From the human T2T-CHM13v2.0 reference genome, Homo sapiens, in assembly GCF_009914755.1 (NCBI RefSeq), contig NC_060941.1: a DNA stretch of 64,000 nucleotides, one strand, 5' to 3'. The position numbers were made by a program, and so were the translations under genes. Below, in pieces: positions 1 to 17,443 of this stretch; the stretch's first letter is position 1; every line of letters starts with the position of its first letter. The notes beneath the pieces were generated by a model. The model saw only the letters and a program-made list of their open reading frames with translations, did no database searches and was not told where the DNA came from.

Positions 1-654
1 CGACAAAACAAGACCAGGTGCAGTGGCTCATGCCTGTAATCCTGGCACTTTGGGAGGCCAACGCGGGTAGATCACCTGAGGTCAGGGATTCAAGACCAGC
101 CTGGGCAACATGATGAAACTCCGTCTGTACTAAAAATACAAAAATTAGGCTGGGCATGGTGGCCCACACCTCTAATCCAAGCACTTTGGGAGGCCAAGGC
201 AGGTGGATCACGAGGTCAGGAGATTGAGACCATCCTGGCTAACACGGTGAAACATCATCTTTACTAAAAATACAAAAATTAGCCGGTCATGGTGGTGGGT
301 GCCTATAGTCCCAGCTACTTGGGAGGCTGAGGCAGGAGAATCGATTGAACCCGGGAGGTGGAGGTTGCAGTGAGTGGAGATCGGTCACTGCACTCCAGCC
401 TGGGAGACAAAGCAAAACTCTGTCTCAAAAAAAAAAAATAATAATTAGCCAGGTGTGGTGGCAGGCACCTGTAATCCCAGGTACTTGGGAGGCCAAGGCA
501 CCAGAATCACTTGAACCAGGGAGGCAGAGGTTGCAGCGAGCTAAAATTGTGCCATTGCACTCCAGCCTGGGTGACAGAGAGAGACTCCATCTCAAAAAAC
601 AAACAACCAAAAAACAAAAACAAAAAAAAGCAAAAAAAAAAAAAAATCTAGTAA

Positions 655-815
655 AATGATAGTAAGGAAATAGTAAGCAACTCTACCTATGTAAATACAA
701 CCAGTTGGATGAAATGGACCAATTCCTTGAAAACTACAAACTACCAAAAAAATACTCAATATGAAACATAATTTTTAAAATCTTGTAACAATGTTAAAAA
801 TTGAATTCATCATTT
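655..815 (+). mobile_element. Old L1 (L1M) ORF2 fragment, mirrored at ~16630-16790
   Basis: gatgaaatggaccaattccttgaaaactacaaactaccaaaa resembles the L1 ORF2 DEMDKFLE-YNLPK region. Confidence 0.7.
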
Positions 816-15000: not shown

Positions 15001-17443
15001 AAGTGATCCTCCTCCCTCAGCCTCCCGAGTAGCTGGGATTGCAGACCTGTGCCACCACACCCACCTAATATTTTTAAATTTTTAGTAGAGACGGGGTTTC
15101 ACCATGTTGGTCAGGCTGCTCTCTACCCCCTTGACCTCAGGTGATCCACCCTCCTCAGCCTCCCAAAGTGCTAGGATTACAGGCATGAACCATCATGCCT
15201 GGCCAGCAGATTTTTTATTTTTTTATTTGTTTTTATTTTTCCAGACAGAGTCTCACTCTTGTCACCTAGGCTAGAGTGCAGTGGTGCAACCTAGGCTCAC
15301 TGCAACCTTTGCCTCCCAGGTTCATGTGATTCTCCTGCCTCAGCCTCCAGAGTAGCTGGGATTACAGGCGCCTGCCACCATGCCCGACTAATATTGTATT
15401 TTAAGTAGAGATGGGGTTTCACCATCTTGCCCAGGCTGGTCTCGAACTCCTGACCTCAGGTGATCCTCCCACCTTGGTCTCCCGGAGTGCTGGGATTACA
15501 GGCATGAACCACCATGCCCAGCCTGATTTTTTGATTTTCTTTCTTTTCTTTCTTTCTTTCTTTCTTTTTTTTTTTTTTAATAAAAACTAGGTCTCACCAT
15601 GTTGCTCAGGCTGGTCTCAAACTCCTGGACTCCAGCAATCCTCCCATTTCAGCCTCCCAAAGTGCTGGGATTACAGGGGAGAGCCACAGTGCCTGGCCTA
15701 ACCACACAAATTTTGACTCCAGAACTCAAGTAGGATTTCTTGGGCAAGGACATCTCACACAAGCCCTTGCAGTTTGCTCCTGGAAAAGATATGTCTGTGC
15801 TGTCCCTGCAGAGAGAGGATAAGAAAGCGTGCATTTGACCTTCCAGCCTTCATCTATTAATGTCTTTTTTCCTGCTGTTGTATTGTATCCTCCACTGTAG
15901 TAAATCTTCACTAGAGTAGAACTTGATCTGGAGTCACATGGGTCCTTCCAGGGAATCACCAAACTAGTCGTATGTGACCATGAAGACAAGAAATTGCTTT
16001 ATTAAAACTATGAATTCAAGGCCAGGCGTGGTGGCTCATGCCTGTAATCCTAACAATTTAGGAGGTTGAGTTGGGTGGATCACCTGAGGTCTGGAGTTTG
16101 AGACCAGCCTGGCCAACATGGTGAAACCCTGTCTCTACTCAAAAGACAAAAAATCAGCCCAGTGTGGTGGTGGGCACCTGTAGGCCCAGCTACTTGGGAG
16201 GCTGAGGCAGGAGAATTGTTTGAACCCAGGAGGTGAAGGTTGTTGTGAGCTGAGATTGCGCCATTGCACTTCAGCCTGGGTGACAGACTACTGAGACACC
16301 ATCTCAAAAAAAAAAAAAAAAAAAAGAATTCTGCTGGGCCTAGTGGCTCATGCCTGTAATCTTGACACTTTGGGAGGCCAAGGCAGGTGGATTGCTTGAG
16401 CTCCAGGAGTTGGAGACCAGTCTGGACAACTTGGCAAAACCCTGTCTTTACAAAAAATAAAAAAATTAGCTGGGTGTGGTGGCAGGTGCCTGTAGTCCTA
16501 GCTACTCAGGAGGCCGAGGTGGGAGGAACACCTGAGCCCAGGAAGTCAAGGATGCAGTGAACCGTGATTGTGCCACTGCACTCCAGTGGGTGACAGAGTG
16601 AGATGCAGTCTCAAAATAAAATAAAGTGAAAAATGATGAATTCAATTTTTAACATTGTTACAAGATTTTAAAAATTATGTTTCATATTGAGTATTTTTTT
16701 GGTAGTTTGTAGTTTTCAAGGAATTGGTCCATTTCATCCAACTGGTTGTATTTACATAGGTAGAGTTGCTTACTATTTCCTTACTATCATTTTACTAGAT
16801 TTTTTTTTTTTTTGCTTTTTTTTGTTTTTGTTTTTTGGTTGTTTGTTTTTTGAGATGGAGTCTCTCTCTGTCACCCAGGCTGGAGTGCAATGGCACAATT
16901 TTAGCTCGCTGCAACCTCTGCCTCCCTGGTTCAAGTGATTCTGGTGCCTTGGCCTCCCAAGTACCTGGGATTACAGGTGCCTGCCACCACACCTGGCTAA
17001 TTATTTTTTTTTTTTTTGAGACAGAGTTTTGCTTTGTCTCCCAGGCTGGAGTGCAGTGACCGATCTCCACTCACTGCAACCTCCACCTCCCGGGTTCAAT
17101 CGATTCTCCTGCCTCAGCCTCCCAAGTAGCTGGGACTATAGGCACCCACCACCATGACCGGCTAATTTTTGTATTTTTAGTAAAGATGATGTTTCACCGT
17201 GTTAGCCAGGATGGTCTCAATCTCCTGACCTCGTGATCCACCTGCCTTGGCCTCCCAAAGTGCTTGGATTAGAGGTGTGGGCCACCATGCCCAGCCTAAT
17301 TTTTGTATTTTTAGTACAGACGGAGTTTCATCATGTTGCCCAGGCTGGTCTTGAATCCCTGACCTCAGGTGATCTACCCGCGTTGGCCTCCCAAAGTGCC
17401 AGGATTACAGGCATGAGCCACTGCACCTGGTCTTGTTTTGTCG
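12040..17443 (-). repeat. Right arm of the large inverted duplication; its true outer end may lie further right
   Basis: Reverse complement of 1-5417, with only scattered substitutions and homopolymer-length differences seen by eye. Confidence 0.98.

What the first reader, a model, noticed from the sequence alone, without database searches (positions are those of the whole stretch)
1..17443. Large near-perfect palindrome: arms of at least 5.4 kb around a 6.6-kb spacer
Seen: 1-5417 is the reverse complement of 12040-17443. By eye I found only about a dozen substitutions or indels (e.g. near 1300, 1376, 1581, 2754, 3701, 3820, 4122, 4137, 4352, 5005) plus poly-A length changes. The arms are therefore not identical, which argues against a simple assembly mirror. 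Inference: this is either a recent inverted duplication or an older one homogenised by arm-to-arm gene conversion, as on sex-chromosome palindromes. The spacer would be predicted to flip recurrently by non-allelic recombination, and read-through transcription would give multi-kb dsRNA.
Basis: partly seen in the sequence, partly recalled or inferred. Interest (0 to 1): 0.75.

Follow-up and report, generated by a model that had tools for sequence, protein, structure and literature searches.

The report
Flipping 52-kb palindrome on chromosome 17
Two mirror-image 22.75-kb copies (99.87% alike) flank a 6.6-kb stretch near the human chromosome 17 centromere; that stretch is an already catalogued inversion, reversed on about 60% of human chromosomes, and the copies are likely an old duplication kept alike by sequence exchange between them, with no protein gene annotated inside.

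Summary
Real, and four times larger than reported. Arms are 22,755 and 22,752 bp (window 12040-34794 and -17334..5417) around a 6,622-bp spacer, with 29 substitutions and 14 indels. The predicted spacer flip is already published: a balanced inversion on 50 of 86 and 78 of 130 haplotypes in two call sets, so this is no assembly mirror. The arms are a gene-free mosaic of chr7 and chr11 pieces with a U6 copy. The right arm is the copy; its inner junction has a 96-bp fold-back and 4-bp microhomology at a small hairpin. Beyond a 2,854-bp microhomology deletion the mirror continues 9.5 kb at only 96.4%. Signs of conversion: patchy arm divergence (p about 0.001), 3 differences in the last 33 bp, flanks that are sisters over their first 1.3 kb, and a published 2,864-bp variant whose start and size match the right-arm junction placed on the left end. 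Against: the flank tree is unresolved further out, polarised GC-bias tests are mixed, and no ape data were seen. Recurrence and dsRNA are untested. Known kind, known variant; modest interest.

The parts
1..5417 (-). In-window part of the left arm; the whole arm is 22,752 bp (chr17:21744666-21767417) and starts 17.3 kb before the window. Further upstream, outside the window: a 2,854-bp block present only on the left (fold-back Alu plus duplicon, about chr17:21741820-21744673; site of a published 2,864-bp variant) and the left flank (chr17:21732285-21741819)
5418..12039 (.). Spacer, 6,622 bp; published common balanced inversion (58-60% of haplotypes inverted)
12040..34794 (+). Right arm, 22,755 bp; inferred to be the copy
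5375..5729 (+). Piece from chr7:99.684 Mb (94%) that runs unbroken across the left arm/spacer junction, marking that junction as the ancestral one
5760..11830 (-). Spacer body, old duplicate of chr7:69.384-69.391 Mb (10.4% substitution divergence)
11735..12043 (.). Fold-back at the right inner junction: 96-bp inverted copy (11735-11830 vs 11948-12043, 3 of 96 differ), short templated-looking insert, 4-bp overlap with the arm start
12041..12065 (.). Small hairpin (11-bp imperfect stem, -4.1 kcal/mol), native to the chr7:99.68 source, at which the right arm begins
12083..26883 (+). Inner and middle arm: old duplicate of a chr7 family (36.07, 46.0, 56.5, 64.2, 102.6 Mb; 82-88%)
17973..18079 (-). 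U6 snRNA copy, identical in both arms (mirror copy at -635); likely a pseudogene
20207..27879 (.). Quiet stretch: 1 arm-to-arm substitution in 7.7 kb against 20 in the inner 8.2 kb at equal GC; candidate recent conversion tract
27255..33992 (+). Outer arm: duplicate of chr11:114.559-114.573 Mb (92-95%)
33994..34733 (+). Piece from chr11:131.396 Mb (94%) interrupted by an Alu (about 34389-34679, with target-site duplication) absent from the source
34720..34794 (.). Outer arm end: 16-bp stem of a fold-back; the last 8-9 bp are the microhomology joining arm to flank; 3 arm-to-arm differences in the last 33 bp
34787..44310 (+). Right flank: multi-copy pericentromeric duplicon, mirror of the left flank (chr17:21732285-21741819, outside the window, ending at the edge of pseudogene LOC100996792) at 96.4% (343 of 9,493 differ)
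   Evidence: hub annotation

Best explanation
This is an inverted segmental duplication with 22.75-kb arms and no annotated protein gene, whose 6.6-kb spacer is a common human inversion, likely flipped by crossover between the arms, and whose arms are likely an ape-age duplication kept 99.87% identical by arm-to-arm gene conversion. Shown: anatomy, sources, junction sequences, both orientations in humans. Inferred history: (1) chr7 and chr11 pieces were assembled into a mosaic and joined through a fold-back Alu to a pericentromeric duplicon; (2) a replication template switch (FoSTeS/MMBIR-like) starting at the small hairpin, leaving the 96-bp fold-back and 4-bp microhomology, copied at least 35 kb in mirror image; (3) a 2,854-bp microhomology deletion removed the long hairpin from the right copy and largely uncoupled the outer 9.5 kb, which drifted to 96.4%, while the inner 22.75 kb kept converting (c = 2u/d is about 2e-5 per base per generation if at equilibrium); (4) crossovers in the arms invert the spacer. 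No selected function is evident; it most likely persists as neutral duplicated DNA.
For: Inversion. Right arm is the copy. Older than its arm identity implies: inner fold-back differs at 3 of 96 (P = 3e-4 at the arm rate), with derived bases in both copies; flanks mirror on at 3.6%; the right flank's best paralogue among 37 scored is the left flank; over the first 1.3 kb the two flanks are sisters (support 94/95; 6 shared sites against at most 1 for any other pair of 9 rows); 3 differences in the last 33 bp of the arm (P = 0.001 without the homopolymer). Conversion: non-uniform divergence (8.0-kb stretch with at most 1 substitution, p = 0.0012; KS p = 0.0025; not explained by GC or CpG); outer arm is GC-richer than its chr11 source (188 vs 135, p = 0.004) while the spacer shows the reverse (210 vs 254; Fisher p = 4e-4); published variant chr17-21741819-COMPLEX-2864 has the start and size (2,863 + anchor) expected if the left end carries the right-arm junction, not the 2,854 of a fresh deletion.
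Against: In the next 3.5 kb of flank the tree is star-like and left+right are not favoured (6 shared sites against 8, 8 and 7 for other pairs; only 3 outgroups). The best-paralogue margin is small (6433 vs 6374 bits) and only 37 of 165 candidates were scored. Polarised GC-bias tests are mixed: inner arm p = 0.15 and 0.90, middle arm p = 0.48 with four paralogues, p = 2e-4 with three, where polarity is unsafe; the chr11 comparison is unpolarised. The edge from 99.9% to 96-97% is sharp, as a recent copy would also give. The 96-bp fold-back could predate the arm copy. The alternative allele of the 2,864-bp variant was not seen, and mis-mapping of right-arm reads is possible. No ape sequence seen.
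Confidence: 0.6

Rival explanations
1. Recent, human-lineage copy: the right arm was made about 0.6-1.3 million years ago by a template switch that landed in a pre-existing sister copy of the pericentromeric duplicon; arms are alike because they are young, with some conversion since.
For: 0.127% divergence is near allelic level and dates to 0.6-1.3 Myr without conversion; sharp identity edge at a microhomology junction; star-like flank tree beyond 1.3 kb.
Against: Needs a sister duplicon copy already in mirror orientation and a landing point only 2.85 kb from the left junction; does not explain 3 differences in the last 33 bp or the 3% fold-back unless these are older leftovers.
Confidence: 0.3
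2. Arm growth: an older inverted pair of the pericentromeric duplicon came first and the mosaic was later copied across by a long conversion or break-induced replication event, so arm age lies between the two models.
For: Flank divergence varies from 2.5% next to the arm to 3.9% further out; palindrome centres on X are structurally unstable (PMC8327919, passages).
Against: Needs an extra event and lost intervening DNA for which no trace was found; the right junction is a deletion relative to the left arrangement.
Confidence: 0.08
3. Assembly or cell-line artefact.
For: The inversion call failed to map to GRCh38 (Table S2).
Against: 29 ordinary substitutions; aged junctions; two population call sets with both orientations, Hardy-Weinberg proportions (10/29/23 vs 9.7/29.6/22.7) and manual verdict TP.
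Confidence: 0.02

Closest known systems
Inversion chr17:21766091-21774943 (Porubsky 2023, PMC10150506 Table S1) = chr17-21762440-INV-16760 (Logsdon 2025, PMC12350169 Table 37)
   Same: The same locus: both calls contain the whole spacer and end inside the arms (window 4091-12943 and 439-17198).
   Different: The rows give coordinates and genotypes only; arm length, origin, junctions, age and recurrence are not given in the rows or in the main-text passages I saw.
Primate X-chromosome palindromes (Jackson 2021, PMC8327919 and PMC8981503)
   Same: Arm length within 8-140 kb, spacer within 77 bp-358 kb, arm divergence under 0.2%; implied conversion rate 2e-5 against 4.5e-5 on X.
   Different: Autosomal and pericentromeric; no annotated protein-coding gene, whereas all 12 conserved X palindromes have one; conservation in apes not shown; can also recombine with a homologue in both sexes.
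FLNA-EMD inverted repeats (X palindrome P24; Caceres 2007, seen only as cited in PMC8327919)
   Same: Near-identical inverted repeats around a short invertible spacer; the recurrent toggling there is recalled, not read here.
   Different: No genes in this spacer; no deep mammalian conservation, since the chr11 pieces were added at about 5.7% divergence.
FoSTeS/MMBIR complex rearrangements (Zhang 2009, seen only as cited in PMC12350158)
   Same: Several junctions with microhomology, local inverted copies and a short templated-looking insert.
   Different: Here old and present in the reference; mechanism inferred from scars only.

Membership tests
Large palindrome (X-palindrome ranges) | Inverted arms of 8 kb or more with a short unique spacer | tested here: met
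   22.75-kb arms, 6.6-kb spacer; ranges
Large palindrome (X-palindrome ranges) | Arm-to-arm identity above 99% | tested here: met
   29 substitutions and 14 indels in 22,755 bp
Conversion-maintained palindrome | Arm-to-arm divergence within species lower than orthologous divergence between species | not testable with these tools
   No ape genomes in the tools; ape-paper tables too large to read
Conversion-maintained palindrome | Local traces of conversion (patchy divergence, older edges, junction transfer) | tested here: met
   indirect
Conversion-maintained palindrome | GC-biased fixed substitutions in arms | tested here: inconclusive
   Unpolarised test positive in outer and middle arm, null in inner arm; polarised tests mixed
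Conserved X-type palindrome | Protein-coding gene in arm or spacer | tested here: not met
   RefSeq table lists only U6; 0 of 12 scanned open frames hit Pfam (12 of 53 frames of 90 aa or more were scanned)
Inverted-repeat-mediated polymorphic inversion | Both orientations segregate, with ends inside the inverted repeats | tested here: met
   Published rows read; tallied
Recurrent (toggling) inversion | Both orientations on several independent haplotype backgrounds | not testable with these tools
   No phased SNP data; the two call sets place the ends differently, a weak hint only
dsRNA-forming inverted repeat | One transcript spanning both arms; A-to-I editing | not testable with these tools
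   No RNA data; none annotated
PIR4 pericentromeric interspersed repeat (name recalled) for the flanks | Sequence identity to PIR4 | not tested
   Flank has at least 40 copies at 91-94%; paper search found no relevant text

The most novel reading that the evidence does not exclude
An autosomal, gene-free palindrome has survived since before the human-chimpanzee split purely by arm-to-arm conversion, and conversion is caught in the act in living people: one arm's end junction has been copied onto the other arm across a 2.85-kb non-matching block, a variant differentiated in African samples (Fst 0.23). That would show large palindromes can persist without selection on genes and give a neutral autosomal clock for palindrome conversion and inversion toggling.
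Probability: 0.4. Interest if true: 0.55.

Novelty: already known. Interest (0 to 1): 0.3.

Why it matters
As a variant it is ordinary: a catalogued common inversion of non-genic DNA. Its value is as a test case. Work on X palindromes concludes that they persist through selection on their genes (PMC8327919, passages); a gene-free autosomal palindrome of ape age would be a neutral control for that claim. It is small enough for single ultra-long reads and has 29 arm-specific markers, so conversion and flipping rates can be measured directly in pangenomes. It also warns that 99.9% identity may underdate a duplication about twentyfold.

Tried and rejected
Assembly mirror: rejected (see rivals). 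Hidden protein gene: 12 of 53 stop-to-stop frames of 90 aa or more, chosen mostly outside Alu-rich stretches, gave no Pfam hit; spliced exons were not searched, and the chr11 and chr7 source loci were not checked for genes. Structured RNA: Rfam finds only U6 in the window. Polarised GC-bias test: inconclusive. Flank tree over 3.5 kb: unresolved. Mirror beyond window 44310: only Alu-level matches to the five tiles covering chr17:21682001-21732000; the left flank is cut off at LOC100996792, so the original extent is unknown. Ape orientation or presence: the tables of PMC12058530 were too large to read; no coordinate match in 4 readable supplements of PMC11393467, one PDF unread. GRCh38-based inversion call nearby: none found in the Logsdon workbook, which was cut when stored. 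Prior description as a palindrome: not found in 10 full-text searches; the library lacks most subscription papers, and bioRxiv supplements and SD tracks were not seen, so it may well be in print.

Full report
Observation. Genome searches and upstream stretches show that the match continues to window 34794 and chr17:21744666. The arms are 22,755 and 22,752 bp, the whole structure 52.1 kb, with 29 substitutions (0.127%; 18 transitions, 11 transversions) and 14 indels. The U6 copy at 17973-18079 is identical in both arms.

What it is made of. Inner and middle arm match a chr7 family at 82-88%. The outer arm matches chr11:114.56-114.57 Mb at 92-95% and chr11:131.396 Mb at 94%, with an Alu inserted after that duplication. 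The spacer matches chr7:69.38-69.39 Mb at about 10% substitution divergence. A 355-bp piece from chr7:99.684 Mb (94%) runs from 5375 to 5729, across the left arm/spacer junction; the right arm carries only its first 43 bp, so the right arm is the copy. These searches score only the best candidates, so closer sources could be missed. No protein gene is annotated; 0 of 12 scanned frames (of 53) hit Pfam.

Junctions. Right inner junction: 96 bp of spacer are repeated in inverted form (3 of 96 differ; 2 derived in the inverted copy, 1 in the forward copy against chr7), then a 4-bp overlap leads into the arm at a small native hairpin. Outer ends: both arms end in a fold-back. On the left it continues about 320 bp through a copy of the arm's Alu and joins a pericentromeric duplicon with at least 40 copies; this copy differs from the right arm at 1 of the first 170 bases and at 13 of the last 91, a gradient that suggests an old hairpin homogenised near its loop. 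On the right only 16 bp of stem remain, joined by 8-9 bp of microhomology to the same duplicon 2,854 bp further on. Past that point the mirror goes on for 9.5 kb at 343 differences in 9,493. These scars fit replication template switching; that step is inference.

The spacer flips. Porubsky 2023 (PMC10150506; I saw main-text passages and chr17 rows of the supplementary workbook) lists a balanced inversion chr17:21766091-21774943, pass, found by assembly and Strand-seq: 50 of 86 haplotypes in 43 of 44 samples, one sample with a non-standard genotype dropped. It did not map to GRCh38. Logsdon 2025 (PMC12350169; passages and one row of Table 37) lists chr17-21762440-INV-16760: 78 of 130 haplotypes, manual verdict TP. 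Dosage agrees in 41 of 41 shared samples, though the two sets share samples and method and are not fully independent; Hardy-Weinberg proportions hold. CHM13 carries the minor orientation. Crossover between the arms is the inferred mechanism; recurrence was not tested.

Old or young? Without conversion 0.127% means 0.6-1.3 Myr. For an older age with conversion: the 96-bp fold-back is about 25 times more diverged than the arms (P = 3e-4; interval 0.6-9%); the arm's last 33 bp hold 3 differences; divergence is patchy, 20 substitutions in the inner 8.2 kb against 1 in the next 7.7 kb at the same GC; the flanks are each other's best match among 37 scored and sisters over 1.3 kb; the outer arm is GC-shifted against its chr11 source and the spacer is not. 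Flank divergence of 2.5-3.6% lies between the human-chimpanzee (0.87%) and human-macaque (5.5%) values given for X palindrome arms (PMC8327919, passages), hence 'ape-age'. In addition, Schloissnig 2025 (PMC12350158; passages and rows of supplementary Tables 13 and 18) lists a biallelic variant chr17-21741819-COMPLEX-2864 with Fst 0.234 in African samples. Placing the right-arm junction on the left end would replace exactly 2,863 bases after position 21741819 by 8, whereas a fresh deletion would remove 2,854. I did not see the allele itself, so junction transfer is inferred from start and size.

Against the old model: the next 3.5 kb of flank gives no support for sisterhood; polarised GC tests are mixed; the identity edge is sharp; the fold-back may predate the copy; ape tables could not be read and a coordinate search of PMC11393467 supplements was blank. 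I put old plus conversion at 0.6, recent copy at 0.3. With c = 2u/d (formula and X value 4.5e-5 from PMC8981503, passages) the implied rate is 2e-5 per base per generation.

Comparison. It works like an X or Y palindrome and meets their size and identity ranges, but lacks the protein-coding gene found in all 12 conserved X palindromes, and cross-species conservation is untested. The region lies in the 17p11.2 KCNJ12/18/17 duplication zone (10.1101/2021.07.12.452063, passages; the placement of this window within that zone is partly recalled) and inside a rare 1.38-Mb inversion. The other papers in the search listings were seen as title and abstract start only. The names PIR4 for the flank and MAP2K3 for the parent of LOC100996792 are recalled and come from no call.

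Verdict. Real; a known kind; the headline prediction is a catalogued variant. The layered anatomy and the junction-transfer reading were not found in 10 searches of a library that lacks most subscription papers. dsRNA has no support either way. Interest 0.3.

Noticed in passing
window 50767-53294: GC-rich (about 68%) pyrimidine-skewed tandem array with a 16-22-bp unit, inside a duplicon shared with chr1, 2, 7, 10, 16 and 18.
   Followed up: no
window 60076-64000: Diverged pentamer satellite (GGAAT-type, HSat3-like by recall) running off the window end.
   Followed up: no
L018, chr17:21744330-21745071: Natural hairpin of about 340 bp with a short loop at the left arm end; near-identical by the loop, about 14% diverged distally; a candidate fragile site.
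   Followed up: partly
window 34786 and its left counterparts chr17:21744674 and 21741820: Both left-side copies of the junction microhomology carry the same T-to-C change that the right junction lacks; could reflect hairpin-templated correction on the right.
   Followed up: no
window 27880-34100: All 5 polarisable arm differences here are derived on the right arm and 4 of them are A/T to G/C; small numbers.
   Followed up: partly
G000:C2:94825942-94870235: The same pericentromeric duplicon also forms an inverted pair on chr2, about 31-36 kb apart; similar near-equal-score inverted pairs appear on chr1 and chr7.
   Followed up: no
L020, chr17:21727173-21732000: Sequence of the upstream pseudogene has a 97% inverted paralogue at chr17:22595554-22600343, about 30 kb from another copy of the flank duplicon.
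   Followed up: no
window 36101-39650: Right flank has about twice as many private changes as the left (72 vs 38), suggesting exchange with an unsampled duplicon copy.
   Followed up: no
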